A DNA stretch of 61,485 bases from a virus: the IMG/VR virus record IMGVR_UViG_3300037067_026753; one strand, 5' to 3'. The notes under the pieces were generated by a model. It saw only the letters and a list, made by a program, of their open reading frames with translations. It did no database searches and had not been told where the DNA came from. The position numbers and the translations under genes were made by a program. Each line of letters opens with the position of its first letter. The stretch's first letter is position 1. Of the stretch, positions 17,886 through 60,496 are shown piece by piece.

Positions 17886-17929
17886 CTTTTTCCTTGTCTC
17901 TTGTGCTCTTTCAACTCCTTGTATCTCTT

Positions 17930-18361
17930 CTAGACTTTTACCCTTGTTAAAACTAAATTCCTCACAATGTTCTTTTTTATATTGCTTAAAACACGAATTG
18001 CTACAAAAAACCCTCTGTTCGTTTTTTCTAATTTCAAGAGTTTTTTTTGCAATGTTTGCATATCTTTAAACTTCTTTTCATTTAACAAAATTAAGCGTTT
18101 CTTGCGTCTTTCTTTAAGTTGTTCTTTAGAGAACTTTTTATTCCAGATTTGTTGAACATATGAAGGTCCAACATTATATTTTGCACCAACTTCTACAGAG
18201 CTATGCGCAAATTTTTCAAAATCATGTCCTATTAAACTTTTTAATTCTTCTAAATACTTTTTGTGCTCTAGACAATTTATTGCTGACATTTTGATATGAT
18301 GACTGACAGCAAGTTTGTTTTTTAATAATTTGTCACAAGAAGAAACATAACATTTAATCAT
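17930..18361 (-). CDS. Hypothetical protein (143 aa)
   Basis: ORF from the supplied track. Confidence 0.45.
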   Translation of the reverse strand: MIKCYVSSCDKLLKNKLAVSHHIKMSAINCLEHKKYLEELKSLIGHDFEKFAHSSVEVGAKYNVGPSYVQQIWNKKFSKEQLKERRKKRLILLNEKKFKDMQTLQKKLLKLEKTNRGFFVAIRVLSNIKKNIVRNLVLTRVKV

Positions 18362-18714
18362 TTTCTGTTATACATTGCTGTGTTAGAAAGGAAACTGTTT
18401 TTCCAGTCCCATTCGTCAAGGAAAAACTTGTCAAAGTCATGACTTGAGATTTCTACTTCATCTCTGACTTCGTACTCTACCATTTTTATAGCTTTTTGAT
18501 ACTCTTTTGCGTAAGAAACTGGTTTAGGTAACCTGACATCAATTACAGTTTCACGTGCTTTGTCAGAATTAAGCTCATCAAGAATATTATGGAGAGCTAC
18601 TTTGCATTTTTCAATCCAGCCAAGTAAAGCTTCTTCATAATCTTTTTCATGTTGGGCGAGATTTTTGTTAAGGACTTCAAGAACAGTTACTTTTTTAACT
18701 TTAATCATTTCCAT
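18358..18714 (-). CDS. Hypothetical protein (118 aa)
   Basis: ORF from the supplied track; start codon coupled to the upstream gene. Confidence 0.45.
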   Translation of the reverse strand: MEMIKVKKVTVLEVLNKNLAQHEKDYEEALLGWIEKCKVALHNILDELNSDKARETVIDVRLPKPVSYAKEYQKAIKMVEYEVRDEVEISSHDFDKFFLDEWDWKNSFLSNTAMYNRK

Positions 18715-18819
18715 AGTTTCCTCCTTTGATGTTCTAAATTATATCAAGTGAGGAAAATAAATTCACAAGTTTGTATTGGATTTATTTTTAAATATAAAAA
18801 ACTTAAAAGAGGAGAAAAA

Positions 18820-19374
18820 ATGCTTAAAATCGACAATATTGATGTATTAACTCGTTGGACAATGGTAATTGATGCTGCAAAAACTACTATTGGCAAGATA
18901 GCATCTAAGAAAGAACCTACATCGCATTGGAAGAAAATGATACTTCTTGCAGAGCATTCACCCATAAGAATTCTTTTAGTGAAGTGGAAATGGGTTGAAA
19001 TAAAATATTGGGTGAGCGTCCATTTTGTAAGACATAAAATTGGGATAGAACATTTTGTCAAATCGCAAAGATCAGACCGTACAGGCAATAATCGAGAAAA
19101 TTCTCCCCAGAATTCTCTAGTCGATCATGAGTGTGTTGCGAATGCTCAATCTATTATTAATATTTCAAGAAAAAGGCTTTGCAACAAAGCATCTAAAGAA
19201 ACACGCGAAGCTTGGCAAATATTCTTGGATAATCTAAAATTAACAGAACCAGAACTTGTAAGCGTGTGTGTGAAAGAATGTTTATATAGAGGGCACTGTT
19301 ACGAATTTGATTCGTGTGGTTATGTGAACACAGAAGATTATGCAATAGAACTTAATAATTATAGGTCGTTATAG
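18820..19374 (+). CDS. ThyX-like protein (short divergent paralog)
   Basis: Strong RBS AAGAGGAG 7 nt before the ATG at 18820. MLKIDNIDVL is like ThyX MKIDIL. EHSPIR and HFVRHKIGIEHFVKSQRS approximate HETPFEH and RHR..S..RY. Confidence 0.45.
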   Translation: MLKIDNIDVLTRWTMVIDAAKTTIGKIASKKEPTSHWKKMILLAEHSPIRILLVKWKWVEIKYWVSVHFVRHKIGIEHFVKSQRSDRTGNNRENSPQNSLVDHECVANAQSIINISRKRLCNKASKETREAWQIFLDNLKLTEPELVSVCVKECLYRGHCYEFDSCGYVNTEDYAIELNNYRSL

Positions 19375-19385
19375 AAATAAATTTT

Positions 19386-20165
19386 ATGAGTATATACAAA
19401 ATAACAAATTTATTAAACAACAAGATTTACGTTGGAAAATTAAAAGACACTTCTGTTTTTGAAACTTATTGGGGTTCGGGAATTCTTATACAACGAACTA
19501 TTACAAGATATGGTATAGAAAATTTTAAAAAAGAAATATTAGAAGAAGTTGCCGATGCAAACATAAATGACAGAGAAAGATATTGGATCAAACTATTTAA
19601 CGCTTATGATATTAAAATCGGATACAACTTAACTGAGGGTGGAGAAGGTGGTGATGTTTTTTCTAAAAAACCAGATTATTTAAAAAATATCACTAGAAAG
19701 AACATGTCAAAAGCACGTAAAGGTATGAAACAAACTCCAGAATGGATAAAAAATAGAATAGGTATGATTACAGGACCAAGAAATGGAATGTTTGGGAAAA
19801 AACTATCTGAAGTCACTAGAAAAAAGATAAGTTTGAAATTAAAAGGCAGAAAATTTACAGAAACACATAAGAAGAACATGTCCAACAGTAAAATTGGTAA
19901 TAAAAACCCAATATACAAGATTTTAGCAGATCCCAAAAAATATAGAAATTTTGTGAACAAAATGTCAGCAGTGACATCTGGTAGTAACAACCCAAGAGCA
20001 TTGAAAATAATTAGATCGGACATGCATGGAAATGAAACATTAAAAGAAGCTACTTTATCAATTGCATCGACAGATAAAAATATTTATTATCAATCAAGAA
20101 AAATAAAAGAAGCAATTGCTAATAATATGCTCCATAAAGAACACAAGTGGAAATTTGCGGAATAG
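19386..20165 (+). CDS. GIY-YIG homing endonuclease with NUMOD-type DNA-binding repeats
   Basis: IYKITNLLNNKIYVGK...YWGSG...REKYWI...NLTEGGEGG GIY-YIG domain. The C-terminus is lysine-rich with repeats (NMSKARKG, NMSNSKIGNKNP). Confidence 0.8.
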   Translation: MSIYKITNLLNNKIYVGKLKDTSVFETYWGSGILIQRTITRYGIENFKKEILEEVADANINDRERYWIKLFNAYDIKIGYNLTEGGEGGDVFSKKPDYLKNITRKNMSKARKGMKQTPEWIKNRIGMITGPRNGMFGKKLSEVTRKKISLKLKGRKFTETHKKNMSNSKIGNKNPIYKILADPKKYRNFVNKMSAVTSGSNNPRALKIIRSDMHGNETLKEATLSIASTDKNIYYQSRKIKEAIANNMLHKEHKWKFAE

Positions 20166-28292: not shown

Positions 28293-29975
28293 TTAGAATT
28301 TTGAAAGTTTCCATGACTGAGCAATTGGTATTCTTCGTCCAAAACCAAATGCTTTCCTATGTAATTTAATACCTAAAGGAGCCTGCCTGCGTTTGAATTC
28401 GGCGTTCTTGATTAGCTGACAGACTCTTTTTACTGCTTCAGGATGTTGATCAGCAATAATTTTGTATTTTTCGTATTCTGCAGGATCTAACCAGTCGCCT
28501 TCAATAAAGAGCTCGAGCAAAGCATCAAGAACAGGATATGGTGGCAAACTGTCGACGTCCTTTTGTCCGGGAGCCAATTCAGCGGAAGGCGCCTTATCAA
28601 TGATCGCTTGTGATATTGCTCCCGGGTATAATGTGTTATAATAAGCAGCCAGTTCATAAACTTTCATTTTGGGTAGATCGGAAATTGGAGAGAGACCGCC
28701 GCACATATCCCCATACATAGTACAATATCCGACAGACAATTCGCTCTTATTTCCTGTCGAAAGGACTAAGTATCCAAAACGATTCGAGTAAGTCATAAGG
28801 ATCATGCCACGAATACGAGCTTGCAAATTTTCTTCAGCAATTCCCGTTTTTTCAGGTGTTCCAAAGCATTTGTTAAATTCTTTGAGAATTGTTTCATAGA
28901 TTCCCTTAATGGGAAGAGTATGAAAATCTATGCCAAGATTTTTGCAAAGAGCCTCTGAATCTTCATAACTTCCGGTCGATGAATATTCCGAGGGCATTGT
29001 ACAACCCATGACTCTTTTAGAGCCAAGAGCTTCTTTTGCAACAGCAGAAACAACAGCGCTGTCTATACCACCAGATTCTCCTATAGCCACTCCTTTGAAA
29101 CCACACTTTGTAACATAAGAACGAACACCGCATACTATTTGCTTGAAATAAAATTCGGCATTCGAAGCATACGGTATATGTTCAATACCACCAGGTGACA
29201 TGCCATGAGTGTGATAAGCAAGCATTAAAGAATCAATTTCAGATCGTTCCTGAACAAAATCCCCCGACTTGAGGATTATAGCACCACGTTTGTTTGTGAC
29301 AAAGCTGTTACCGTCAAAAACAATGTCATCATTACCACCAACCTGATTGACGTAAACAATGGGCATTGCATATTGCTTGCTGATCCGCTTTATCATTTCG
29401 ACTCTTTCTTGATGTTTTCCGACAACAGAAGGAGAGCCGTTGATTGAGATAATGAATTCGACATTTGCATTGAAAAGATCTTCAACAGGATTTATTGTAT
29501 AAATTGAATTGTTGTACCACAGATCCTCACAGATAACAATTCCAATACGTATGCCGCGAAATTGAAAAATGCCCGGTTTTTCTCCCGGTTGAAAATAACG
29601 AGACTCATCGAAAATATCATAGGTAGGTAGTAACCTTTTCCTGTAGTTGTATATGACTTCACCTTTATAGCAAACTGCAGCCGAATTATAGAGCTTTTTC
29701 CCATGGCCTGTATTTTTTTCTACATAGCCGATTATAATTGGAGAATTGATTTCTTTTGTTTGTTCGAGAAACCATTTTAATGCTTCGTCTTGATCTGCAA
29801 GAAAAGCTGAATAATCGACTAAATCAAGAAGAGGATAGCCAGGGATAGTGAGTTCTGGGAAAACATACATGAAAACGCCATTGTCAGTTTTTTGCTTTAT
29901 AAAGTCGATAACTTTTTGAGCATTCCCCATAAAATCACCAACAATCGTGTCGATCTGACATAAGACAATATTCAT
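28293..29975 (-). CDS. nadE: Glutamine-dependent NAD+ synthetase (NadE, CN-hydrolase plus PP-loop synthetase)
   Basis: The N-terminal nitrilase-like domain has the catalytic Glu in VFPELTIPGY and a Cys in VICEDLW. The C-terminal SGGIDSAVV is a PP-loop ATP pyrophosphatase motif. Confidence 0.85.
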   Translation of the reverse strand: MNIVLCQIDTIVGDFMGNAQKVIDFIKQKTDNGVFMYVFPELTIPGYPLLDLVDYSAFLADQDEALKWFLEQTKEINSPIIIGYVEKNTGHGKKLYNSAAVCYKGEVIYNYRKRLLPTYDIFDESRYFQPGEKPGIFQFRGIRIGIVICEDLWYNNSIYTINPVEDLFNANVEFIISINGSPSVVGKHQERVEMIKRISKQYAMPIVYVNQVGGNDDIVFDGNSFVTNKRGAIILKSGDFVQERSEIDSLMLAYHTHGMSPGGIEHIPYASNAEFYFKQIVCGVRSYVTKCGFKGVAIGESGGIDSAVVSAVAKEALGSKRVMGCTMPSEYSSTGSYEDSEALCKNLGIDFHTLPIKGIYETILKEFNKCFGTPEKTGIAEENLQARIRGMILMTYSNRFGYLVLSTGNKSELSVGYCTMYGDMCGGLSPISDLPKMKVYELAAYYNTLYPGAISQAIIDKAPSAELAPGQKDVDSLPPYPVLDALLELFIEGDWLDPAEYEKYKIIADQHPEAVKRVCQLIKNAEFKRRQAPLGIKLHRKAFGFGRRIPIAQSWKLSKF

Positions 29976-37444: not shown

Positions 37445-37663
37445 CTATCCCTTAGCTTCTAGAGCTTCTATAAACCGACTGATTTCATTTAATTCTCTAG
37501 CATTAATTTGTACATATCTTATAGGAGAAAATAAAGTAGATCCACCTAAACGCTGAATAACTCCTATACATTTGCTTCTCTTATAGACATCATGCAACCA
37601 ATAAGTGCGTGCTTTTTTCTTGAATGTTAAAGTTTTTGTTTTATGTACAATTACTTCATTCAT
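37445..37663 (-). CDS. Hypothetical small protein (72 aa)
   Basis: ORF from the supplied track. Confidence 0.4.
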   Translation of the reverse strand: MNEVIVHKTKTLTFKKKARTYWLHDVYKRSKCIGVIQRLGGSTLFSPIRYVQINARELNEISRFIEALEAKG

Positions 37664-38541
37664 AAATTTTTAAACCATGTACGGCTAAATGATGTGTTGT
37701 CTTTTTCCGACCAACCGTTTGTATATTTAAGCAAGTCAAGATGATTCAATGTTGAACTTATTTCATCAGCTCTATGAAGAATATAGGATTCTTTTGTCTT
37801 GCAAACTATAGGACTACCACAGTTTAATTCTCCATGGTGACTAAGAATAAGGTGATAAAGAAGCATGATTTTTGTCTGATCTACATCATTGGGTGCAATT
37901 TTTGATACAAACAAAGCTGAAATAGAAAGATGTCCCAACAATGCTTCCCAATTTGTTTTTGAAATTTTACCTTCATCATCAAGATCATAAGCTTTTAATT
38001 TTCCAATATCATGCAACAATCCTGCTGTTATCAACAATTCTCTATCGACGTCGCTAAAATATTGTCCAATCAATAAACTTATATCGACAACTTCAATGCT
38101 ATGCTGGACTAAACCATGTATGTAATTGTGATGATTGCCTTGAGCGGCTGGGTATTCAAAATATAACTCTTTGACATCTTCATTAAAACAATTATCAAGT
38201 ACTTTTTTATAATCTACATCTGTGACACTTGCAATAAGCTCGTAAAATCTGTCTATATACTTTTGAACATCAAATTTTTTATCTATCTGTGTATCTAGCA
38301 TATGTTTTGACAAATAAATAATATCAAGACAAAAATATTTCCTTCTTTTTCTAACACGTCCCTTACAAATAATTTTTTCACCAACACTATACGTTTTAGA
38401 AAACAGATCTATATTGTCTTTCAAAAGCCCAATTATTTTAGTTGTTCCATCATTAAGCTCTATCTCGACAACATGATCTCTAAACGTAATTCTTTCAATT
38501 GTGAAAGAACCTGTAATTATTTTGCCCGATTCAAATTCCAT
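37660..38541 (-). CDS. HD-domain phosphohydrolase with an N-terminal OB fold (YhaM-like 3'-5' exonuclease architecture)
   Basis: HHNYIHGLVQHSIEV......LLHDIGK HD motif, with a beta-rich domain N-terminal to it. Confidence 0.55.
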   Translation of the reverse strand: MEFESGKIITGSFTIERITFRDHVVEIELNDGTTKIIGLLKDNIDLFSKTYSVGEKIICKGRVRKRRKYFCLDIIYLSKHMLDTQIDKKFDVQKYIDRFYELIASVTDVDYKKVLDNCFNEDVKELYFEYPAAQGNHHNYIHGLVQHSIEVVDISLLIGQYFSDVDRELLITAGLLHDIGKLKAYDLDDEGKISKTNWEALLGHLSISALFVSKIAPNDVDQTKIMLLYHLILSHHGELNCGSPIVCKTKESYILHRADEISSTLNHLDLLKYTNGWSEKDNTSFSRTWFKNL

Positions 38542-47398: not shown

Positions 47399-48068
47399 TT
47401 AAAGTATTACATTTTTTCTCTCCTTTTTTGTTTTAGAAATTTTCTCCCTTACTTCTTTTCTCTTGGAAACATTGTTTTCACCACTTATTAAAATTTTTCT
47501 TTGTGGATTATTTTTCCAAAAATTTAAGACTGCTTTTGAAATATTTTGTTTTTGTTCTATTGTTCTTTTTCTTCCTCTTAAAATAAATTTAGGTTTGCCT
47601 TTTTGTTTTTTAGACGCATGCGACATTTTTTGTCTAGTAATTTCTGTCGGTTTTCTACCAGACATTGCAAGACTCACTTTTTTCTTGCGCTGTTCTGTCC
47701 AAGGAGATTTTATAAAACAATCTTTTTTCCCATTCGCAGTATCTTCTTTATACTTACTTCTAATTTCTTCTCTTCGCGGATTATTTGAAAAACAATCGCC
47801 CCCATCACCACCTTTTGTTATATCCAACAGGTGCTCTTGAATTAAGAAACTCTATCCAATATTTTTCTCTTTCATTTAGCTGATCTACTTGACATTCTTC
47901 TATAATATCTTTTCGAAAATTTTCTTGGCCATATTTTATTATTGCTTTTCGTATAAGTATACCTGATCCATAATATTGAATATTATACTTTAATTCTTTC
48001 CCGATATAAATTTTGCCATTCAAAAGATTTGTAATTTTATAAATTACGCTTAAACTTGCCATAATCAT
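47399..48068 (-). pseudogene. GIY-YIG homing endonuclease interrupted by a frameshift
   Basis: ORF 47805..48068 encodes the GIY-YIG domain (IYKITNLLNGKIYIGK...YYGSG...REKYWIE...N). ORF 47399..47827 encodes the lysine-rich NUMOD-like C-terminal half. The two ORFs overlap by 23 nt in different frames. Confidence 0.55.
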
Positions 48069-49084
48069 CTTTTTCTAAGTGTTCGTTCATAATCTTCAAA
48101 ACGTATTTTTGCGATTTTTGAACGCTGTTCTGTTCGAACTACAACTCCTTCAGGTTTTCCCAATGCATCATTTTCAAGCAAAGCGTTTGACATGCCCGGG
48201 AGCAGATTTTTCAACCAATCATAAGTCCCTTGAATGGTTTGTGGTGGACATGCTCCAATAATAGAAGGCACTATTAGACATCTTATATCTGCTGCTACAC
48301 TTGCAATTGTTCTGACTCCAACAAAATTTTGTCCCCCATTATCTCTCCAAGCAGCTATTTTTTCTATGGGCAAATCAAGTAAATCTTCAAACTCTTTTGC
48401 TTCCATCATTATGACATCAAACAACCTGAAACCAAGTTTCCCTGTTTTTGTATAATTTTTTGCCGTTCCTGCTTTACCCCCATAAACTTCCCCAAATAAT
48501 ACAAAAACAGATTGTTCAAGTTGGTCCCAGTAAATTCTTCTTGCATTGTCAGCCACAGTTTGAATTGTATCAACAATATCTAATGTAGGATTATGAATCC
48601 AATCTCCAAAACCATAAAGAAGTTCTTCACGAGAACCAATTAGATATGTCCCTTTAGGAAACAAAATAATACGAGCATTTGTACCATCAATTTTCTCAGA
48701 AAGAAAAATTTCGTCATCTGCTGAAAAAGATACAAGAACTTCTTCTTTCAAAGAACCTCTATCCCCAAGAGCATGATATGTAAGAATACTTGGGTATTTT
48801 GTAGCCGAATTGATTTTTTTCAAATCAAAAGCTCGCATATTCACACAATATTTACCATAATCAGGATTATGTTTCTTCATAATGTCGTATGTTGCCGGTC
48901 TTACTTTCCAGCCTACATTGTCGCAATTACCACAAGCTATACTCATGCTCATAGCAGCTACATCACCTGGCATAATTTCTTCGCTATTACAATTAGAACA
49001 AGTCATTACTACAAATGCTGACGGTGGACAAATCTTACCCTCATGCTTTATACCACAAAAAATACAATGCTTAGCTTCACTCAT
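48065..49084 (-). CDS. ATP-dependent RNA ligase (Rnl2-like nucleotidyltransferase) with an N-terminal zinc finger
   Basis: Motif I EKIDGTNARI (compare Rnl2 KIHGTN). N-terminal Cys clusters CIFCG...CP, CSNCNS and CGNCDN. Confidence 0.55.
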   Translation of the reverse strand: MSEAKHCIFCGIKHEGKICPPSAFVVMTCSNCNSEEIMPGDVAAMSMSIACGNCDNVGWKVRPATYDIMKKHNPDYGKYCVNMRAFDLKKINSATKYPSILTYHALGDRGSLKEEVLVSFSADDEIFLSEKIDGTNARIILFPKGTYLIGSREELLYGFGDWIHNPTLDIVDTIQTVADNARRIYWDQLEQSVFVLFGEVYGGKAGTAKNYTKTGKLGFRLFDVIMMEAKEFEDLLDLPIEKIAAWRDNGGQNFVGVRTIASVAADIRCLIVPSIIGACPPQTIQGTYDWLKNLLPGMSNALLENDALGKPEGVVVRTEQRSKIAKIRFEDYERTLRKR

Positions 49085-49850
49085 TCTCTTTATCCCCTGC
49101 AGCCATAGCCTTTATGACTTCATTCAACACCGGTGCTTGACATTCTCCTGGTTTTGTAGCAGTAAGCTCTACTCCTGCATTTTCTGCAAAAAACATATCA
49201 CCCTGATTGAAACGTAGAGCATCAGCTTGCTTGCACTTCTCTATCCATTCTTTAAAACCATTTTCATAATCATCGGTTAGACTGGAAAGCCATTTGAAAA
49301 ATTCTTCCAAAGTCGAAGGAAGTACGCCCACCCAATCAGAACCATAGTCATAAGGGCCCTGTGTTTGCTCATCCCAATAATCTATATGTTCTGATTCTCC
49401 ATTTTCAAGATAACGATCTATATAATGTTTTCCTGTATGATCACTACCAGAAAACCAAACTTCGTCATCTTTGGGCTCGCGTCCAAGTGATTTAAGAACT
49501 TCAGTCACTTTATCTTTATAGCCTGCACAACCTATGCCAGCAAAACGATGATAAACAGGTTTTTCAGGTTCTTTTTTATAATCAGTACAACTTGCATAAA
49601 TAAAAATGCCGTTTTGAGGACCTCTGATTGATACAATATCAAATCCTGCAAGTTGTACATCTCCTGAATTTATTGCTGCAATTGTTGGCTTTGTAAAATC
49701 ATGTTCTTCATGCCACATTTCTTCGCTCGAAACATAAGCCCAATTTTTATAAATTGAAATTGAAGATTTTAATTTGTAATGATTGAACGTGCCATTACAA
49801 GCTTGAGCGTCAGAATTAAAAGCTAAACAATCCCAATTTGAGAGTGCCAT
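49077..49850 (-). CDS. Hypothetical protein (257 aa)
   Basis: ORF from the supplied track. Confidence 0.5.
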   Translation of the reverse strand: MALSNWDCLAFNSDAQACNGTFNHYKLKSSISIYKNWAYVSSEEMWHEEHDFTKPTIAAINSGDVQLAGFDIVSIRGPQNGIFIYASCTDYKKEPEKPVYHRFAGIGCAGYKDKVTEVLKSLGREPKDDEVWFSGSDHTGKHYIDRYLENGESEHIDYWDEQTQGPYDYGSDWVGVLPSTLEEFFKWLSSLTDDYENGFKEWIEKCKQADALRFNQGDMFFAENAGVELTATKPGECQAPVLNEVIKAMAAGDKENE

Positions 49851-49871: not shown

Positions 49872-50696
49872 TCAATCCACGAATTTTACATTTGCCCTTG
49901 CACGTGCTTTGGATTCAGTATTGACAAGTACTTTATGCCATACGCTTCCAAGATTCACAGTAGCATGTTCTTCATGCGAAATTTTGCCCTTGGCATACAC
50001 ATTGGGATCAGCCATCATAGAACGGTAACGCTTTGCACTATCAGGTTGCTCTTTTAAGAGCTTTTGATAATCTTTCACTTCAATAACGTTACTCCCAAGA
50101 ACATAAACTTGTCTTCCACCTACTCTGTACAAAAATTCAGCATAGTGAAAGTGAGAACCTCCACCTCTCATCGGTTCGTTCTTCCAGACTTTTGTCAAGT
50201 TCCCTTTGGGCGGCTCAAAATTCGGTTGAGGAACAAACATGAATTCGCCTTGACGGTGAATTTTCTTTCCCGACTTCAAAAGACGGTGTCTCTTATGCGC
50301 ATTCTTTTTGTTGACACCCTCTTTCGATTCAATGTCAATAAGTTCTTTGGGTTTTAAAGCTTGTTTGGCACCAATTACCGTAGTAACTCTTGAAGATTCA
50401 GGGATAGCACAAGTGAACCAGTGACGTTCATCATGTCCACAAAGAAATTTCGACTTGATTTCGCTTGTCTTATCGCCTTTTCTGTTGATAACAGGTACTT
50501 TTGTCATCAAAAGCAAATGTCTGTCAGCTTTTTGAGCATCAAGAATCAACATTTCTATTTCTTTTGTGACTTGAAGCTCAAAATACTCGCCTTCACTGTC
50601 TCTTCTGACATCAATAGAAAAACCATCTCTACGTGGCTCAATGACTTTTACTCGAGCCCCGATTGCTTCGAATTTCTTTTCGATTGTTGTTGTCAT
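49872..50696 (-). CDS. Hypothetical protein (274 aa)
   Basis: ORF from the supplied track. Confidence 0.5.
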   Translation of the reverse strand: MTTTIEKKFEAIGARVKVIEPRRDGFSIDVRRDSEGEYFELQVTKEIEMLILDAQKADRHLLLMTKVPVINRKGDKTSEIKSKFLCGHDERHWFTCAIPESSRVTTVIGAKQALKPKELIDIESKEGVNKKNAHKRHRLLKSGKKIHRQGEFMFVPQPNFEPPKGNLTKVWKNEPMRGGGSHFHYAEFLYRVGGRQVYVLGSNVIEVKDYQKLLKEQPDSAKRYRSMMADPNVYAKGKISHEEHATVNLGSVWHKVLVNTESKARARANVKFVD

Positions 50697-57425: not shown

Positions 57426-57445
57426 ATTTTTACTCCAAATTTAAG

Positions 57446-57519
57446 AGACCCAGGGCGGATTTGAACCGACCGTAATGCTAGTTTTGCAGACTAGTGCCTT
57501 ACCGCTTGGCTACTGGGTC
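57446..57519 (-). tRNA. tRNA-Cys (anticodon GCA)
   Basis: Acceptor GACCCAG/CTGGGTC, discriminator U73 as expected for Cys, anticodon loop CTGCAAA, T-loop TTCAAAT. Confidence 0.75.
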
Positions 57520-57675
57520 ATGATATATTGTGTAATTCTTCAGCACATTCATAATAAACAGCTCGTTCGACATCAGTAATACAGCTAGACTGTGCTTTCT
57601 CAGTCCACTTCCTCACCAAATCATGGCAAGCATTTTTCAAAATTTGCAATTTATCTTTATCTGTCGACAAGTCTA

Positions 57676-58032
57676 TCATATTCGTTCATATACAAATTTG
57701 AATTTGTTTTGCTTATCTAATTTTTCTTCAGCTAATAAATAATCTTCTGGAAGAGACGCATTATTTATTGTCCCGTGTTTGCCAATAAACAAAATTTCTT
57801 TTAAAGTCGAATTAAGGTAAACATGAGCACCAAATAATGTTCCTATCAACTCACCATATCCAAGCTTAGAAAAAGTATCACTATCTGTATACGGATCAAA
57901 ACAATCAAGTAGATGATAGAGCAATTCTTGATGAATCTCTGCATTTATGCAAATAGATTCTACACGCTCATCTCCTATCTCGATTCGTGCAATGCCATCA
58001 ACAATTAATTTTCGTAATTTTTCTTTTTTCAT
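57676..58032 (-). CDS. Hypothetical protein (118 aa)
   Basis: ORF from the supplied track. Confidence 0.45.
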   Translation of the reverse strand: MKKEKLRKLIVDGIARIEIGDERVESICINAEIHQELLYHLLDCFDPYTDSDTFSKLGYGELIGTLFGAHVYLNSTLKEILFIGKHGTINNASLPEDYLLAEEKLDKQNKFKFVYERI

Positions 58033-58040
58033 AATTCAAA

Positions 58041-58113
58041 AGCCGATGAAGGGATTCGAACCCCCGACCTGCACATTACGAATGTATTGCTCTACCAACT
58101 GAGCTACATCGGC
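58041..58113 (-). tRNA. tRNA-Thr (anticodon CGT)
   Basis: Acceptor GCCGATG/CATCGGC, D-arm GCTC/GAGC, anticodon loop TTCGTAA (the stem has an A-C mismatch at 27-43), T-loop TTCGAAT. Confidence 0.6.
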
Positions 58114-58119
58114 AAAAAA

Positions 58120-58204
58120 TGGCGGAGGAAGAGGGACTCGAACCCCCAAGCCCTTTCGGGCGGCAGTTTTCAAGACTGCTCGTCTACCATTGACGTATTC
58201 CTCC
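58120..58204 (-). tRNA. tRNA-Ser (anticodon TGA), type II, CCA encoded
   Basis: Acceptor GGAGGAA/TTCCTCC, G73, anticodon stem GCAGT/ACTGC with loop CTTGAAA, variable arm CGCCCGAAAGGGCTT. Confidence 0.8.
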
Positions 58205-58209
58205 AAAAT

Positions 58210-58377
58210 TTACTTCTTTGCATACCTTTCGCTTTTTTCAGCATAAGGTAAACTATTTAATTCTACATCTAAATCAAACAAATGCCAGTTTTTACAACAA
58301 AAACATTCCTTTGATTTTGCCTTTGTGCAATCTAAACAGGTAAAAAGGCCGTTCCGTCTCTTATCTAATTCAGTCAT
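58210..58377 (-). CDS. Possible Cys-rich mini-protein (55 aa, not in the ORF track)
   Basis: My translation reads MTELDKRRNGLFTCLDCTKAKSKECFCCKNWHLFDLDVELNSLPYAEKSERYAKK. It lies between two tRNA genes. Confidence 0.3.
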   Translation of the reverse strand: MTELDKRRNGLFTCLDCTKAKSKECFCCKNWHLFDLDVELNSLPYAEKSERYAKK

Positions 58378-58425
58378 AAGAACCTCCCGTTTACCAGTAG
58401 ATTCTTATATACTTTTTAGAAAAAT

Positions 58426-58498
58426 TGTTAGCGAAAGGACTTGAACCTTCAACCGACAGATTATGATTCTGTTGCTCTACCAATTAAGCTACGCTAAC
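58426..58498 (-). tRNA. tRNA with CAT anticodon (elongator Met or Ile2/lysidine type)
   Basis: Acceptor GTTAGCG/CGCTAAC, A73, anticodon stem ACAGA/TCTGT with loop ATCATAA, T-loop TTCAAGT. Confidence 0.7.
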
Positions 58499-58784
58499 AT
58501 GACACTAAAAAACGCATTTTTGCGTGTTTATCCTCACTCTCAAGTTTTTTATTCTCGACAATCATAAACATATCTAACAAGGGTTCATATTGAACTTTCA
58601 ATTGTATTCTATCATTACAATCTATATAAACAGGTTTCTTAAAACTTTCTTGATAATGTCGTAAATTCACGGGGTCTCCTCCCCAATCTAATTTAAGTCT
58701 ATAGGGAGAATAATTAAACTGATGAGGATCGCCTTGGAGAACCTTTTTTACTTCATCAGATGACATATAACATCGAAAACTCAT
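58494..58784 (-). CDS. Hypothetical protein
   Basis: The tracked ORF starts at 58817, inside the tRNA-like locus. Internal Met 58784 is the likelier start. Confidence 0.4.
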   Translation of the reverse strand: MSFRCYMSSDEVKKVLQGDPHQFNYSPYRLKLDWGGDPVNLRHYQESFKKPVYIDCNDRIQLKVQYEPLLDMFMIVENKKLESEDKHAKMRFLVSC

Positions 58785-58790
58785 AAATTT

Positions 58791-59023
58791 TGCCCTTGGT
58801 GGGATTTGAACCCACATAACATTGATTAGAGTTCCTCTTTGGAAACGCGATTCCTGCCGCTGTTTACAAACCCTCCAAAGCTGTCGCCAGATCTTTGGCA
58901 GCGTATCAGTTCTGCCGCAACCATGGAACTCGCCTAAGAACAGTTTCCCGTTCGGTCAATGCCCTCCGTTAAGAGTCACGGTCCGTTTTTCCGAGTGCAC
59001 TTTCCATTTTATGCTACAAGGGC
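58791..59023 (-). ncRNA. tRNA-like gene whose perfectly matching acceptor halves are separated by an insert of about 160 nt (intron-containing tRNA or tmRNA-like RNA)
   Basis: The 5' part, GCCCTTG-TA-GCAT-AAAATGGAAA-GTGC, at 58996-59023 forms an acceptor 5' strand and a full D-arm. The 3' part, GTGGG-TTCAAAT-CCCAC-CAAGGGC-A, at 58791-58815 forms the T-arm and a 3' acceptor strand with 7/7 complementarity to the 5' strand. The interval between them is GC-richer than its surroundings. Confidence 0.5.
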
Positions 59024-59076
59024 CTAAAATTTAAAAATTGGTTGCATCTGAGTTATCAATGCTGTTTTTCTTTTTG

Positions 59077-59185
59077 ACAGTTCTTGAGACTGTTGCCTGA
59101 ACCAGTTCGGCTAACCCGGCACCCAATTGACATAAGCTCAGCCACAATCAACTGAGTGCCGGGTCTTGGATTTGAACCAAGATAA
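59077..59185 (-). ncRNA. Candidate circularly permuted tRNA-Leu(CAA)-like gene
   Basis: Reading the minus strand, the order is: T-arm CTTGG-TTCAAAT-CCAAG, then 3' acceptor strand ACCCGGC plus A, then a 33-nt linker, then 5' acceptor strand GCCGGGT, TA, D-arm GCC-GAACTGGTTCA-GGC, and the anticodon arm ACAGT-CTCAAGA-ACTGT. The acceptor halves are exactly complementary, and there are flanking A5/T5 tracts. Confidence 0.45.
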
Positions 59186-59240
59186 AAATGTAAGCACTAA
59201 TTGTTAAAAGATACAACCAATTAATTTCAAAGATCAAATT

Positions 59241-59326
59241 TGGCCAGAAAGGGACTTGAACCCTTACGGACCTCACGGTCCCTCGGATTTTGAGTCCGAG
59301 TTGTCTCCCGATTCCAGCATCTGGCC
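59241..59326 (-). tRNA. tRNA-Leu (anticodon CAA), type II
   Basis: Acceptor GGCCAGA/TCTGGCC, A73, D-loop GAATCGGGAGA, anticodon loop CTCAAAA, variable arm GGGACCGTGAGGTCCGT, T-loop TTCAAGT. Confidence 0.75.
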
Positions 59327-59644
59327 TATATCTGTATGTTCACCAACTCTTCTAAGCAAAGGTGGTGATTTCATTTCGACATATCTTTCATTACCTGTCT
59401 TTTTATCTTTAAATTTTTTATAATCCTGTCGCCAATTTCTAGGAATTATAGGTTCAAGTTTAGAATTAACTTGATTTATTTTTTCGATTTCATTTTCCGT
59501 TAAATTAACTTTACCATCTCGCAAAAAAGCAAATTTATTTTTAGTAGTTTTTTTCTTGATTTCTTCTAACTCTTTAAGTTCTACCTGTGTAGGTTCATGT
59601 TTTCGTAACCTGAAAATTGCTTCTAAATCTTCAACTTCAGCCAT
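59273..59644 (-). CDS. Hypothetical charged protein (123 aa)
   Basis: ORF from the supplied track. Its last 18 codons overlap tRNA-Leu(CAA). Confidence 0.4.
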   Translation of the reverse strand: MAEVEDLEAIFRLRKHEPTQVELKELEEIKKKTTKNKFAFLRDGKVNLTENEIEKINQVNSKLEPIIPRNWRQDYKKFKDKKTGNERYVEMKSPPLLRRVGEHTDIGQMLESGDNSDSKSEGP

Positions 59645-59787
59645 TTTATCTCCTGGCCAAAACAGCGACTTTTAAATATTGAATTAGCAATTTCATGAAT
59701 CAGACCTAATCTTTTTATTACAAAAGAATGACAATTGGAACATAAAAACCAAACATTGTCTCTTAAAAACTGAATTAGCAATTTATA

Positions 59788-59872
59788 TGGTGCCCAGGGG
59801 GAGACTTCAACTCCCACGCCTTTCGGCGCCAGGTCCTAAGCCTGGTGCGTCTAGCGATTCCGCCACCCGGGC
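59788..59872 (-). tRNA. tRNA-Leu (anticodon TAG), type II, CCA encoded, with a C19/G56 swap
   Basis: Acceptor GCCCGGG/CCTGGGC, anticodon stem CCAGG/CCTGG with loop CTTAGGA, variable arm CGCCGAAAGGCGT. The D-loop is GAATCGCTAGA (no GG), and the T-loop is TTGAAGT (G where C56 is expected). Confidence 0.7.
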
Positions 59873-59873
59873 A

Positions 59874-60083
59874 TTAATCTTGACATTCAATATCAATATG
59901 CTCAAAACTTTCTTCTTCACTTATAAAGAATGGACATCGCTCTTTTTCTTGTCCATAAGTTGTATCAGGCAATGTCCCTTTATGAAAAGAAATACAAAGA
60001 TCTAGATTTCTCGGACATTCAAAAGGTCTATATACTAAAACATCTAAAACAGTCCAATCCATCCGAGCATTTGTTTTATGCAT
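59874..60083 (-). CDS. Hypothetical small protein (69 aa)
   Basis: ORF from the supplied track. Confidence 0.3.
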   Translation of the reverse strand: MHKTNARMDWTVLDVLVYRPFECPRNLDLCISFHKGTLPDTTYGQEKERCPFFISEEESFEHIDIECQD

Positions 60084-60110
60084 ATCTTGTTCAATATCTC
60101 CATTTGTTCA

Positions 60111-60365
60111 TTAATTGTGAACAACATCAAAAGTTATATGCTCATAAACTTTTATTCGAATTGGATTATCTTTAAAAATTCTATCTGCTAAAATCTGGTA
60201 TCCCATCAACCTTCTGTATTTTTTTGGTTGCACCCACCAGTCTTTAGAAATAGTCGATTGTCTCCTAATTTCTTTATATACTTGTTTTATTTCCTTTTCA
60301 TATCCTTTTACATCATATTTGTTCATAAAAGACTTGAAGTTACCAAAACCTGCAGCCAAGTACAT
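60111..60365 (-). CDS. Hypothetical protein
   Basis: The tracked ORF runs to 60479, but its first 25 codons are the antisense of tRNA-Ser(GCT). An internal Met is the likelier start. Confidence 0.35.
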   Translation of the reverse strand: MYLAAGFGNFKSFMNKYDVKGYEKEIKQVYKEIRRQSTISKDWWVQPKKYRRLMGYQILADRIFKDNPIRIKVYEHITFDVVHN

Positions 60366-60405
60366 CAACAAAGCTTTAAACCAATCGCCTTGTTTTATTA
60401 AAATA

Positions 60406-60487
60406 CGGAGAGACGGGGATTCGAACCCCGAAGTCCTTTCGGACGCAAGTTTAGCAAACTTGTTGCTTCCCGTTAGCATATCTCTCC
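60406..60487 (-). tRNA. tRNA-Ser (anticodon GCT), type II
   Basis: Acceptor GGAGAGA/TCTCTCC, G73, anticodon stem CAAGT/ACTTG with loop TTGCTAA, variable arm CGTCCGAAAGGACTT, T-loop TTCGAAT. Confidence 0.8.
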
Positions 60488-60496
60488 AAATCTCTT

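What the first reader, a model, noticed from the sequence alone, without database searches (positions are those of the whole stretch)
59077..59185. Candidate circularly permuted tRNA-Leu(CAA)-like gene
On the minus strand, a textbook T-arm and 3' acceptor strand (CTTGG-TTCAAAT-CCAAG-ACCCGGC-A) comes first. Only 33 nt later comes a textbook 5' acceptor strand, D-arm and anticodon arm (GCCGGGT-TA-GCC-GAACTGGTTCA-GGC-A-ACAGT-CTCAAGA-ACTGT). The two acceptor strands are perfectly complementary over 7 bp, and over 9 bp counting AC/GT. So the precursor would fold into a complete cloverleaf whose chain break lies in the variable region. An A5 tract after the anticodon stem and a T5 tract before the T-stem could form the split variable-arm stem expected for a type II Leu tRNA. 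Permuted tRNA genes are, as far as I know, established only in the red alga Cyanidioschyzon merolae and a few other algae and archaea. A phage or bacterial example would be new. A canonical tRNA-Leu(CAA) lies about 55 nt away. The alternative is that this locus is a rearranged, non-functional duplicate.
Basis: partly seen in the sequence, partly recalled or inferred. Interest (0 to 1): 0.85.

Follow-up and report, generated by a model that had tools for sequence, protein, structure and literature searches.

The report
Permuted, capped tRNA look-alike in phages
A giant phage carries a conserved gene for a tRNA-shaped RNA whose two halves are encoded in swapped order and whose amino-acid-accepting end is sealed by a hairpin, and it belongs to an apparently undescribed family found in the tRNA clusters of many huge phages.

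Summary
On the minus strand, a T arm and 3' acceptor strand (59158-59181) come first. A 36-nt hairpin follows. Then come the perfectly complementary 5' acceptor strand, D arm and anticodon arm (59077-59120). The rotated sequence is called tRNA-Leu(CAA); 0 of 1000 shuffles are.

It is not a decayed duplicate. Two related phage contigs keep the same order at 86-93% identity, while the adjacent ORF is 76-84% identical and the neighbouring canonical tRNA-Leu(CAA) 63%. The flanks form a 28-bp closing helix at the variable-arm position. The acceptor stem extends into a 17-bp capped hairpin.

A covariance model built only from seven similar elements in other huge phages recovers the window element at 58 bits (E about 1e-12). 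It finds 21 further elements in 16 viral loci. Of 20 modelled pairs, 17 show compensatory changes, including all 7 acceptor pairs.

Most members have tetraloop-capped acceptor stems. A few encode CCA. The anticodon loop is the fastest-evolving part (CAA here, UGA in sister phages).

Best reading: a capped, permuted tRNA mimic. It has the T arm / acceptor hairpin / D arm order of YrlA Y RNAs but is not a YrlA. Maturation into a working (two-piece or religated) tRNA is not excluded. Function is unknown; I infer a decoy for anticodon-reading factors.

The parts
59209..59222 (-). Closing helix, distal segment, 5' strand (AAUUGGUUGUAUCU). Pairs with 59036-59049.
   Evidence: 14 bp. Two one-sided changes in L033/L034 keep pairing (U.G to C-G; G-C to G.U).
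59193..59201 (-). Closing helix, middle segment, 5' strand (AUUAGUGCU). Pairs with 59055-59063.
   Evidence: 9 bp including 2 G.U pairs, which points to RNA on the minus strand.
59189..59194 (-). Family motif CUUACA. CU closes the helix; UACA is unpaired. It lies 7 nt before the T stem.
   Evidence: Invariant in window, L033 and L034. Shared (as CUUACA, CUCACA or CAUACA) by 24 of the 25 permuted elements and by the non-permuted long-variable-arm genes. The closing duplex abuts it in 21 of 24 cases, within 1 nt in 23.
59184..59188 (-). U5, innermost closing-helix segment. Pairs with A5 at 59071-59075.
   Evidence: Shortened to U4/A4 on both sides in L033.
59165..59181 (-). T arm (CUUGG UUCAAAU CCAAG).
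59158..59164 (-). 3' acceptor strand (ACCCGGC). The A at 59157 occupies the discriminator position.
   Evidence: All 7 pairs covary across the family.
59121..59157 (-). Cap: a 10-bp extension of the acceptor helix (59148-59157 pairs with 59121-59130) closed by a 17-nt loop. No CCA.
   Evidence: The stem is kept in L033 and L034 through U.G/U-A changes, while the loop varies (17, 21 and 5 nt).
59114..59120 (-). 5' acceptor strand (GCCGGGU).
59095..59113 (-). U8 A9 and the D arm (GCC GAACUGGUUCA GGC). Type II-like 3-bp stem, with A14, A15 and G18G19.
59077..59094 (-). A26 and the anticodon arm ACAGU-CUCAAGA-ACUGU. Anticodon CAA at 59084-59086; G at position 37.
   Evidence: The loop is AUUGAAA (UGA) in L033 and L034. 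The stem shows a compensatory U-A to A-U change in L034. Substitutions are enriched in the loop.
59036..59076 (-). 3' strand of the closing helix: C44, A5, internal loop GAAAAAC, AGCAUUGAU, internal loop AACUC, AGAUGCAACCAAUU.
59241..59326 (-). Upstream neighbour: canonical tRNA-Leu(CAA). Its 3' processing would define the 5' end of the element's RNA (inferred).
58791..59023 (-). Downstream neighbour ('element 2'): a tRNA-like gene with an open acceptor stem, D arm and T arm, and a structured insertion of about 150 nt where the anticodon arm should be. RNase P cleavage at its 5' end would define the 3' end of the permuted RNA (inferred).

Best explanation
The locus encodes a non-coding RNA of about 190-210 nt. 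It folds into a complete tRNA-shaped body, but the gene order is circularly permuted relative to a tRNA.

Architecture (shown):
- The RNA's own 5' and 3' ends pair as a 28-bp helix that takes the place of the variable arm.
- The acceptor stem is sealed by a hairpin.
- The elbow determinants and a 5-bp/7-nt anticodon arm are canonical: U8:A14, A15:U48, G18G19 and the T loop UUCAAAU.
- It belongs to a family found in the tRNA islands of many huge phages. Family members share this order: closing-helix 5' strand, CUUACA junction, T arm, 3' acceptor strand, cap, 5' acceptor strand, D arm, anticodon arm, 'CA', closing-helix 3' strand.

Mechanism (inferred):
- It is transcribed with the tRNA cluster. 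Ordinary RNase P and 3'-end processing of the flanking tRNA-like genes sets it free.
- As made, it cannot be aminoacylated because its acceptor end is capped.
- It offers tRNA-binding factors a genuine elbow and a specific anticodon stem-loop on a nuclease-resistant scaffold.
- The anticodon loop is the element that changes between near-identical relatives, so it is probably the specificity determinant.
- Most plausibly the RNA imitates one particular tRNA and so engages, titrates or blocks a factor that reads anticodon loops. A host tRNA-targeting defence nuclease is my leading guess. That last step is the weakest.
For: Structure in the window:
-.

Conservation in two relatives:
- L034 and L033 were found through neighbouring ORF homologues.
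- The element with its flanks is 92.9% and 85.6% identical to the window. The adjacent ORF DNA is 76-84% identical and the adjacent canonical tRNA-Leu(CAA) 63%.
- Of 58 pairs, 99.4% of cells are paired. Four one-sided changes preserve pairing, one change is doubly compensatory, U5/A5 becomes U4/A4 on both sides, and one pair is broken.

Family membership:
- Model R1 was built from 7 elements of other IMG/VR phages only. It scores the window element at 58.0 bits, E about 1e-12, over its full length. Tandem-tRNA junctions score 32 bits or less in the window and 40 or less in L005.
- R1 finds 25 permuted elements in all: the window, L033, L034 and 22 in 16 IMG/VR loci (21 distinct).
- 97.4% of cells are paired. 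17 of 20 pairs have changes on both sides, including all 7 acceptor pairs. Covariation score is 0.859 against 0.205 in shuffles, reached by 0 of 500.
- The flank duplex has z < -3 in 17 of 24 elements and ends at the CU of CUUACA in 21 of 24 (within 1 nt in 23).

Capping:
- 14 of 25 caps are loops of 3-6 nt (UUCG, GAAA, AUUA and others) with no discriminator or CCA. The window lineage has a 10-bp helix extension instead.
- Pairing that extends the acceptor stem inhibits bacterial RNase P (PMC9433436, abstract).

Anticodon loop as the variable element:
- Window vs L034: 4 of 7 loop positions differ against 5 of 180 elsewhere (p = 8e-5).
- L049 vs L071: 2 of 7 against 3 of 126.
- Pooled p = 5e-6.

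Redundancy and context:
- A canonical tRNA with the same anticodon lies nearby in each phage.
- tRNA-targeting defences, including cleavage of the variable loop of a type II tRNA, and phage tRNA counter-measures are documented (PMC13096335).
Against: - No expression or end-mapping data exist, so the capped state in vivo is inferred.
- Five family members carry N73-CCA followed by a short trailer inside the cap. These look designed to be opened, as happens to M. smegmatis YrlA (PMC4201824). The family may therefore not be uniformly 'closed'.
- 13 of the 17 canonical tRNAs in the window also lack an encoded CCA. Its absence here is not evidence against maturation.
- The body carries a full tRNA-Leu identity set: A73, A15:U48 and a type II D arm.
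- The decoy function rests only on the pattern of variation. No partner protein was identified.
- Alignment A5 was fitted to the model, which favours the structure. Even so, complementarity between a 3' strand and a downstream 5' strand is not expected for tandem tRNAs.
Confidence: 0.52

Rival explanations
1. It is a true permuted tRNA gene that matures into a working tRNA-Leu(CAA). RNase P, together with RNase Z or exonucleases and the CCA-adding enzyme, opens the cap. The result is one of two things. Either it is a two-piece tRNA held together by the acceptor stem and the 28-bp variable-arm helix, analogous to two-piece tmRNA. Or, after the closing helix is cut and sealed by the phage RNA ligase, it is a contiguous type II tRNA.
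For: - The rotated sequence is a textbook tRNA-Leu(CAA), with U at position -1 and A73.
- Five family members encode N73-CCA plus a short trailer in the cap.
- Most canonical tRNAs of this phage also lack CCA.
- An RNA ligase (PF09414) lies at 48065-49084 and a YhaM-like 3'-5' exonuclease at 37660-38541.
- M. smegmatis YrlA is cleaved by RNase P and receives CCA in vivo (PMC4201824).
- tRNAs with aptamer-extended variable arms can be translationally active (PMC7590224, abstract).
- Non-permuted long-variable-arm relatives often encode CCA.
Against: - The conserved 10-bp extension buries the cleavage site in a continuous 17-bp helix. Such pairing inhibits RNase P (PMC9433436).
- Most family members are tetraloop-capped with no discriminator.
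- Sister phages combine the same Leu-type body with a Ser anticodon.
- Position 33 is not U in 7 of 25 members.
- A canonical tRNA with the same anticodon sits next door.
- There is no BHB motif and no known bacterial enzyme for the cut.
- A 28-bp arm is far longer than any known functional variable arm.
Confidence: 0.22
2. It is a Y RNA of the YrlA type: the RNA partner of a Ro60/Rsr protein, with the closing helix as the Ro-binding stem.
For: - It has the same T arm / closed acceptor hairpin / D arm order as YrlA (PMC4201824; 10.1101/312249).
- Rfam YrlA (RF02553) gives weak partial hits on two family members: 20.5 and 22.1 bits, model positions 30-81.
- YrlA occurs in phages.
Against: - There is no YrlA hit on the window element even at E <= 10.
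- The family hits are far below the gathering score of 69.
- There is no GNCGAA motif in the 5' strand (sequence).
- Pfam finds no TROVE protein among the window ORFs scanned or the L047 ORFs.
- The closing helix sits at the variable-arm position, not the anticodon-stem position, and a full anticodon arm is present.
Confidence: 0.07
3. It is mainly a processing or structural signal within the polycistronic tRNA transcript, for example an RNase III-type site built from the long helices. The tRNA-like core would be an evolutionary left-over of a tandem tRNA pair.
For: - Long helices interrupted by asymmetric internal loops, reminiscent of phage RNase III sites (my own knowledge).
- Location between tRNA genes.
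Against: - The tRNA core determinants and the anticodon arm are conserved, with covariation, across 25 elements. A mere processing hairpin would not need them.
Confidence: 0.05
4. It is a non-functional remnant of two tandem copies of a tRNA-Leu gene: the 3' part of the first copy, the spacer, and the 5' part of the second.
For: - Duplication followed by truncation is the standard route to circular permutation, and the locus lies in a tRNA array.
- L033 has one broken T-stem pair, G53.A61.
Against: - It is 86-93% conserved, more than the flanking ORF and far more than neighbouring canonical tRNAs.
- The flanks and the spacer have acquired conserved pairing.
- The same architecture recurs in 16 other IMG/VR loci with full covariation.
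Confidence: 0.02

Closest known systems
YrlA Y RNAs (Rfam RF02553) of bacteria and mycobacteriophages
   Same: - tRNA-like L-shape with a canonical T arm and D arm.
- The acceptor stem is a closed stem-loop placed between T and D. The RNA therefore resembles a circularly permuted tRNA, with its 5'/3' ends forming a long stem.
- Thought to derive from dimeric tRNA transcripts.
- One member (M. smegmatis) is opened by RNase P and receives CCA (PMC4201824; 10.1101/312249).
   Different: - In YrlA the terminal stem replaces the anticodon arm and carries the Ro60-binding motif GNCGAAN0-1G. There is no anticodon loop, and the gene lies within about 4 kb of rsr.
- Here the terminal helix replaces the variable arm and a full anticodon arm is kept.
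- The conserved junction motif is CUUACA(AGC).
- No TROVE gene was found.
- Rfam YrlA scores are nil (window) or 20-22 bits against a threshold of 69.
Circularly permuted tRNA genes of Cyanidioschyzon merolae, other algae and Thermofilum pendens
   Same: - The 3' half is encoded upstream of the 5' half.
- The acceptor strands are joined by an intervening sequence.
- Leader and trailer pair with each other.
   Different: - Those precursors present a bulge-helix-bulge motif. They are cut by the splicing endonuclease, circularised, and then opened by RNase P and tRNase Z. Their break points lie in the anticodon, D or T loops (my own knowledge; summarised in 10.1101/312249).
- Here there is no BHB, the host is bacterial, the break point is the variable arm, and the acceptor cap is a stable helix or tetraloop.
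Two-piece (circularly permuted) tmRNA genes of alpha-proteobacteria, cyanobacteria and others
   Same: A bacterial precedent for a permuted tRNA-like gene. Its acceptor-side intervening segment is excised, and the two RNA pieces stay together by base pairing (my own knowledge).
   Different: - tmRNA has a G3:U70 alanine identity pair, a tag reading frame and pseudoknots, and no anticodon arm.
- None of these features is present here: the third acceptor pair is C3-G70 and ARAGORN makes no tmRNA call.
Allo-tRNAs and (8/4) tRNAs with long variable arms in bacteria and phages (PMC5389517)
   Same: - Non-standard tRNAs found in gene clusters.
- Long variable arm and many different anticodons on one scaffold.
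- Proposed to act as missense or nonsense suppressors and/or regulatory RNAs.
- The non-permuted long-variable-arm relatives found here often fold as 8/4 with Sec-like D arms.
   Different: - Allo-tRNAs are contiguous, have open acceptor ends and are about 90-100 nt long.
- The window element is permuted, capped, 7/5, and has a 28-bp 'variable arm' made from its termini.

Membership tests
Canonical tRNA gene (Rfam RF00005 / ARAGORN) | A contiguous cloverleaf, detected by standard tRNA finders. | tested here: not met
   ARAGORN and Rfam do not call the locus at gathering or at E <= 10. It is called only after in-silico rotation.
Canonical tRNA gene (Rfam RF00005 / ARAGORN) | Conserved core nucleotides and tertiary pairs: U8:A14, 15:48, G18G19, T54-A58, U33, R37. 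| tested here: met
   Read directly from the sequence and from the ARAGORN cloverleaf of the rotated sequence.
Permuted tRNA genes (Cyanidioschyzon / Thermofilum type) | The 3' half lies upstream of the 5' half, with complementary acceptor strands. | tested here: met
Permuted tRNA genes (Cyanidioschyzon / Thermofilum type) | A bulge-helix-bulge motif (3-nt bulge, 4 bp, 3-nt bulge) formed by leader and trailer at the junction. | tested here: not met
   The leader/trailer helix has internal loops of 4x7 and 7x5 nt. No register gives 3-4-3 (manual inspection).
Permuted tRNA genes (Cyanidioschyzon / Thermofilum type) | The host has an archaeal/eukaryal tRNA splicing endonuclease. | tested here: not met
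   The phage encodes bacterial-type DnaE and a type II (85-nt) tRNA-Tyr, which indicates a bacterial host. One contig is binned in GenBank as Nanoarchaeia, but this looks like a binning artefact. This evidence is indirect.
Permuted tRNA genes (Cyanidioschyzon / Thermofilum type) | A circular intermediate and a mature contiguous tRNA. | not testable with these tools
   Needs RNA data.
YrlA Y RNA (RF02553) | Reaches the Rfam gathering score (69 bits). | tested here: not met
   No hit on the window element at E <= 10. Family members L047 and L073 score 20.5 and 22.1 bits, over model positions 30-81 only.
YrlA Y RNA (RF02553) | T arm, closed acceptor stem-loop and D arm, in that order. | tested here: met
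YrlA Y RNA (RF02553) | GNCGAAN0-1G (Ro60-binding) motif near the 5' end, with the terminal stem at the anticodon-stem position. | tested here: not met
   There is no CGAA in the 5' strand 59186-59240. The terminal helix emerges at the variable-arm position and a complete anticodon arm is present.
YrlA Y RNA (RF02553) | Encoded within about 4 kb of a Ro60/Rsr (TROVE) gene. | tested here: not met
   Pfam finds no TROVE domain in the 50 window ORFs scanned, which include every ORF of at least 450 aa and all those within 4 kb (five ORFs of at least 150 aa, all more than 40 kb away, were not scanned), or in the 8 L047 ORFs scanned. The rest of the roughly 400-kb genome was not visible.
Two-piece tmRNA | G3:U70 pair, tag reading frame, pseudoknots. 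| tested here: not met
   The third acceptor pair is C3-G70. ARAGORN makes no tmRNA call.
Huge-phage permuted, capped tRNA-like RNAs (family defined here) | Matches a covariance model built from members in other phages. | tested here: met
   R1 (trained without the window lineage): 58.0 bits, E about 1e-12, full length, top hit in the window.
Huge-phage permuted, capped tRNA-like RNAs (family defined here) | CUUACA junction motif a few nt (2-12; 7 here) before the T stem, with a closing helix from the two flanks ending at its CU. | tested here: met
   Motif at 59189-59194. Duplex z = -6.1 and ends at the motif.
Huge-phage permuted, capped tRNA-like RNAs (family defined here) | The acceptor stem is closed by a short stable loop. 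| tested here: inconclusive
   The window lineage has a 25-41-nt linker that forms a 10-bp helix extension rather than a tetraloop. Five other members have CCA-containing linkers.

The most novel reading that the evidence does not exclude
These are genuine circularly permuted tRNA genes of bacteriophages. In at least some members the cap is opened by RNase P and 3' processing. This applies to the CCA-encoding members and possibly to the window element. The product would act in translation in one of two forms. It could be a two-piece tRNA held together by its giant variable-arm helix. Or it could be a contiguous tRNA after a phage-encoded RNA ligase reseals the cut helix. Either way it would be the first permuted or split tRNA system outside archaea and eukaryotes, and it would work without a BHB endonuclease. 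Because the anticodon is rapidly re-targeted on a fixed Leu/Ser-type body, such tRNAs could recode specific codons during infection.
Probability: 0.2. Interest if true: 0.92.

Novelty: new variant of a known kind. Interest (0 to 1): 0.72.

Why it matters
Huge phages carry large tRNA sets. These are increasingly seen as weapons in a conflict with host defences that cut tRNAs.

This family has four notable features:
- a tRNA-shaped RNA with swapped halves;
- a sealed acceptor end;
- a rapidly changing anticodon loop;
- presence in the tRNA islands of many unrelated huge phages (18 of the 27 contigs that carry the junction motif exceed 100 kb).

It would be a new class of tRNA mimic, invisible to standard tRNA and Rfam annotation.

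If the RNAs are decoys, they point to anticodon-specific host factors that have not yet been identified. If some are opened and charged, they would be the first permuted or two-piece tRNAs in the bacterial world. They would also be a natural example of anticodon re-targeting on a fixed scaffold.

Either outcome is directly testable with simple RNA end-mapping. The covariance model built here gives a handle for finding a cultivable phage that carries one.

Tried and rejected
1. Group I intron or natural permuted intron-exon arrangement. Rfam gives no intron hit at E <= 10. The flanks total only about 105 nt.
2. Bulge-helix-bulge (archaeal) splicing. No BHB register fits. tRNA-Tyr is the bacterial type II form. 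The Nanoarchaeia label on one GenBank contig is probably a binning artefact.
3. Hairpin, hammerhead or twister-type ribozyme in the two internal loops. There are no Rfam hits, and the loop sequences do not fit the hairpin-ribozyme loops A and B (manual check).
4. Intrinsic terminator or promoter. The consensus scan is no better than shuffles.
5. Ro60 partner. No TROVE domain was found. A VWA-domain ORF in the window and a 624-aa VWA protein in L047 are not homologous to each other and have no Ro60 match in the PDB.
6. Finding relatives by DNA pattern. The first viral-contig scans, the single metagenome scan and the single genome scan returned only tandem tRNAs or chance matches. The 231-aa neighbour gave only identical copies or contigs too short to help. 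Relatives came from homologues of the adjacent 123-aa ORF and from a relaxed T-loop/D-loop pattern.
7. MAFFT alignment of the natural sequences mis-aligned the variable linkers. I trimmed the linkers to 4 nt or less before building the model.
8. BLAST of two family members against GenBank phages. One gave nothing. The other gave only a tandem tRNA-Leu junction in Aeromonas phage Aeh1.
9. Literature. No paper in the held library describes permuted tRNA-like genes with anticodon arms in phages.
Full report
**Context**

The window is part of a huge phage genome.
- It encodes a bacterial-type DNA polymerase III alpha subunit, NAD synthase, ThyX, an RNA ligase and HNH and DUF559 endonucleases.
- It carries 17 canonical tRNA genes, all on the minus strand between 44.8 and 61.3 kb.
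- Exact-protein look-ups place it on ENA and JGI metagenome contigs. A GenBank contig extends past the window end and adds ten more tRNAs.
- One of those tRNAs is an 85-nt tRNA-Tyr with a long variable arm. That is the bacterial form, so the host is bacterial. The GenBank contig is labelled as a Nanoarchaeia bin; this is probably a binning artefact.
- The standard genetic code is used in the window.

**The observation**

- T arm 59165-59181, 3' acceptor strand 59158-59164, A at the discriminator position 59157.
- After 36 nt: 5' acceptor strand 59114-59120, U8 A9, D arm 59095-59111, A26, anticodon arm 59077-59093 (anticodon CAA).

Neither ARAGORN nor Rfam recognises the locus as it stands.
- The rotated sequence is called tRNA-Leu(CAA) for most junction lengths tried, 55 of 65 rotated constructs.
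- None of 1000 shuffles is called, and the minimum-free-energy fold of the rotated sequence is a cloverleaf.

- The acceptor helix continues through the 'spacer' for ten more pairs. This gives a 17-bp hairpin closed by a 17-nt loop.
- The flanks pair with each other over 28 bp (5 + 9 + 14 bp, with two internal loops).

The statistics support both.
- The whole 216-nt region folds with z = -6.3.
- The flank-flank duplex has z = -4.6; 0 of 2000 shuffles do as well.
- At least five G.U pairs place the RNA on the minus strand, like all neighbouring genes.

**Conservation**

Homologues of the adjacent 123-aa ORF led to two related contigs, L034 and L033. Both keep the same permuted order, the cap and the closing helix.

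Identity to the window:

| Region | L034 | L033 |
|---|---|---|
| Element with flanks | 92.9% | 85.6% |
| Neighbouring ORF DNA | 76% | 84% |
| Adjacent canonical tRNA-Leu(CAA) | 63% | 63% |

The substitutions respect the structure.
- 99.4% of cells in 58 pairs are paired.
- Four one-sided changes keep pairing.
- The anticodon stem has one double compensatory change.
- U5/A5 shrinks to U4/A4 on both sides.
- The cap loop varies (17, 21 and 5 nt) while its stem is kept.
- One T-stem pair is broken in L033.

Three sequences are too few for significance in the shuffle control (153 of 500). The pattern nonetheless rules out a decaying remnant.

The anticodon loop differs: CUCAAGA (CAA, Leu) in the window and AUUGAAA (UGA, Ser) in both relatives, on an otherwise identical Leu-type body.

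**A wider family**

A relaxed pattern (T loop, gap, type II D-loop) found a second, divergent permuted gene in a 372-kb IMG/VR phage contig, L047. It is a permuted tRNA-Leu(UAG) with an encoded CCA and a GNRA hairpin in the linker.

That contig also holds:
- another permuted gene;
- at least five non-permuted tRNA-like genes of about 111-144 nt. These have open acceptor stems and a conserved insertion of roughly 65-75 nt at the variable-arm position.

All of them share the motif CUUACA (or CUCACA) a few nucleotides before the T stem. So do the window element and its two relatives. The rotated L047 permuted gene aligns with both halves of the variable-arm insertion of the non-permuted genes. 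The permuted genes are therefore circular permutations of long-variable-arm tRNA-like genes, opened at the tip of that arm.

Scanning IMG/VR for CTTACAAGC followed by a T arm returned 29 loci from 27 contigs. Eighteen of these contigs are longer than 100 kb. All loci examined with ARAGORN or Rfam are tRNA islands.

**Independent test of membership**

I built covariance model R1 from seven permuted elements of other phages only, with linkers trimmed to 4 nt or less. Results:

| Target | Score |
|---|---|
| Window element, 59075-59194(-), full length, best hit in the window | 58.0 bits, E about 1e-12 |
| L034 | 57.2 bits |
| L033 | 49.2 bits |
| Tandem-tRNA junctions in the window | at most 32 bits |
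| Tandem-tRNA junctions in L005 | at most 40 bits |

Tandem-tRNA junctions are the expected false positives for a model of this shape (noted for YrlA in PMC4201824).

Across 36 sources R1 finds 25 permuted elements: the window, L033, L034 and 22 in 16 IMG/VR loci, two of them identical.

On the resulting alignment:
- 97.4% of cells are paired.
- 17 of 20 pairs show changes on both sides. These include all seven pairs between the upstream 3' acceptor strand and the downstream 5' acceptor strand.
- The covariation score is 0.859, against 0.205 in shuffles; 0 of 500 shuffles reach it.
- With partners slid by 1-3 columns, only 35-46% of cells pair.
- The alignment was fitted to the model, which favours the structure. 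But acceptor complementarity across a gene junction is not expected for tandem tRNAs.

The closing duplex has z < -3 in 17 of 24 elements. It ends at the CU of CUUACA in 21 of 24, and within 1 nt in 23.

**Anatomy of the family**

The order is: closing-helix 5' strand; CUUACA(AGCA) junction; canonical T arm; 3' acceptor strand; cap; 5' acceptor strand; a two-nucleotide linker (UA, UG or similar); type II-like 3-bp D stem with G18G19; A26; 5-bp anticodon stem with a 7-nt loop (U33 in 18 of 25); 'CA'; A-rich junction; closing-helix 3' strand.

The caps fall into groups.
- 14 of 25 are loops of 3-6 nt (UUCG, GAAA, AUUA, GAAU and others) with no discriminator or CCA.
- 5 of 25 have N73-CCA followed by a short trailer.
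- The window lineage has the long helix extension.
- The remaining three have 7-11-nt linkers with no CCA after the discriminator.

Anticodon-position triplets cover many amino acids: ACG, GAU, GAA, UAG, CGU, GUU, UGA, GGA, UGG, UUC, AAG, CAA and others.

In two independent pairs of close relatives, substitutions concentrate in the 7-nt loop.
- Window vs L034: 4 of 7 loop positions differ, against 5 of 180 elsewhere (p = 8e-5).
- L049 vs L071: 2 of 7, against 3 of 126.
- Pooled p = 5e-6.

**Interpretation**

Shown by the analysis:
- a conserved RNA gene;
- a permuted tRNA fold with the termini in a long helix at the variable-arm position;
- a sealed acceptor end;
- an authentic elbow and anticodon arm;
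- a fast-evolving anticodon loop;
- family membership.

Inferred:
- The RNA is released from the tRNA polycistron by normal processing of its neighbours.
- In the capped majority, and probably here, it is never aminoacylated.
- It acts as a mimic of a particular tRNA towards some anticodon-reading factor.

Three points argue for a capped mimic in this lineage.
- The conserved 10-bp extension places the would-be RNase P site inside a continuous 17-bp helix. Pairing that extends the acceptor stem inhibits bacterial RNase P (PMC9433436, abstract).
- Sister phages pair the Leu-type body with a Ser anticodon.
- Each phage already has a canonical tRNA with the same anticodon nearby.

The decoy idea fits current knowledge. 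Host defences cleave specific tRNAs, including the variable loop of type II tRNA-Tyr, and phage tRNAs counter this (PMC13096335). It remains a hypothesis.

**The main rival**

The main rival is that the element is a real permuted tRNA precursor.
- For: five relatives encode CCA in the cap; 13 of the 17 canonical tRNAs in the window lack an encoded CCA; the body has the Leu identity set; the window encodes an RNA ligase and a YhaM-like exonuclease; M. smegmatis YrlA is opened by RNase P and CCA-tailed in vivo (PMC4201824).
- I give this 0.22 for the window element.

Other rivals:
- A YrlA/Ro60 relationship is unlikely (0.07). Rfam YrlA gives no hit here and only 20-22 bits on two relatives, against a threshold of 69. 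There is no GNCGAA motif. No TROVE protein was found. The permutation point is also different.
- A pure processing signal (0.05) and a dead remnant (0.02) are disfavoured by the covariation in the tRNA core.

**Comparison with known systems**

- The element works most like YrlA, a closed-acceptor permuted tRNA mimic, but fails every YrlA-specific membership test.
- It resembles algal and archaeal permuted tRNA genes in gene order only.
- It resembles two-piece tmRNA only as a bacterial precedent for a permuted tRNA-like gene.
- Its non-permuted relatives resemble allo-tRNAs (PMC5389517) in having long variable arms, 8/4 folds and many anticodons on one scaffold.
- No Rfam 15 family reaches its threshold on any member other than tRNA itself.
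- No paper in the held library describes the family.
- I therefore rate it a new variant of a known kind (tRNA mimics with permuted topology).

**Limits**

- There are no expression data.
- Only three sequences represent the window lineage.
- The family survey is restricted to loci fetched through one motif.
- The model's E-values are rough because calibration was short.
- The function is inferred from the pattern of variation alone.

Noticed in passing
window 58791-59023 (-): 'Element 2' lies 12 nt downstream of the permuted element. It is a tRNA-like gene with an open 7-bp acceptor stem (GCCCUUG/CAAGGGC, A73), a 3-bp D stem and a canonical T arm. About 150 nt of structured sequence, with GNRA-capped hairpins, sits where the anticodon arm should be. 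It is 92% conserved in L034, which lacks one GAAA-capped hairpin. Its acceptor and T arm are identical to canonical tRNA-Leu(UAA) genes of IMG/VR phages. There is no Rfam hit. ARAGORN's intron-mode solution (tRNA-Gly with a 146-nt intron) is unconvincing. The internal domain has no relatives outside this lineage.
   Followed up: partly
L047 4748-6142 (-), and L050-L076: A family of non-permuted tRNA-like genes of 111-156 nt in huge-phage tRNA islands. They have a conserved insertion of roughly 65-75 nt at the variable-arm position that ends in CUUACAAGC just before the T stem. Many fold as 8/4 (8-bp acceptor, 4-bp T stem) with Sec-like or allo-tRNA-like D arms, carry diverse anticodon loops and often encode CCA. 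ARAGORN misses them and Rfam mostly does. They appear to be the unpermuted counterparts of the finding.
   Followed up: partly
window 57445-60488 vs L034 136-4872: tRNA gene turnover between closely related phages. tRNA-Thr(CGU) and tRNA-Cys(GCA) are 99-100% identical. The syntenic tRNAs with the same anticodon for Leu(CAA), Leu(UAG), Ser(UGA), Ser(GCU) and Met(CAU) are only 56-67% identical, so they have been replaced by different genes.
   Followed up: no
window 48065-49084 (-), 37660-38541 (-), 28293-29975 (-): An RNA-repair-like gene set: an RNA ligase (PF09414 / phrog_548), a YhaM-like HD 3'-5' exoribonuclease and a glutamine-dependent NAD synthase. The two ORFs upstream of the ligase (49077-49850 and 49872-50696) have no family match.
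   Followed up: partly
window 16153-20165: There are ThyX (Thy1) matches in a minus-strand ORF (16153-17151) and, weakly, in a plus-strand ORF (18748-19374). The plus-strand ORF lies next to a plus-strand NUMOD3 homing-endonuclease-like ORF (19386-20165). GC content and GC skew change in this stretch. It may be a mobile-element insertion or a rearranged thyX region.
   Followed up: no
L005 (GenBank JAQUND010000028.1): This contig continues the phage beyond the window end. It carries ten tRNAs, a bacterial-type tRNA-Tyr and a prepilin-type N-terminal methylation domain (PF07963) protein. GenBank lists it as part of a 'Candidatus Nanoarchaeia archaeon' MAG, which is probably a phage contig mis-binned into an archaeal genome.
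   Followed up: partly
L047 605-1771 (-), 6251-7770 (-): The 372-kb IMG/VR phage encodes a full-length EF-Tu, and a ThiF-family ORF adjacent to a LAGLIDADG endonuclease ORF, inside its tRNA island.
   Followed up: no
window 59273-59644 (-): The 123-aa ORF upstream runs about 54 nt into the canonical tRNA-Leu(CAA) gene (59241-59326). In L033 the homologous ORF ends earlier and is followed by an extra 84-aa CxxC-type ORF that the window lacks.
   Followed up: no
L077 147-251 (Aeromonas phage Aeh1, AY266303.2 114904-115008): The GenBank record annotates a 105-nt 'tRNA-Glu (UUC)' in a cultured T4-like phage. That is unusually long for tRNA-Glu. It might be an intron-containing or long-arm tRNA worth checking.
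   Followed up: no
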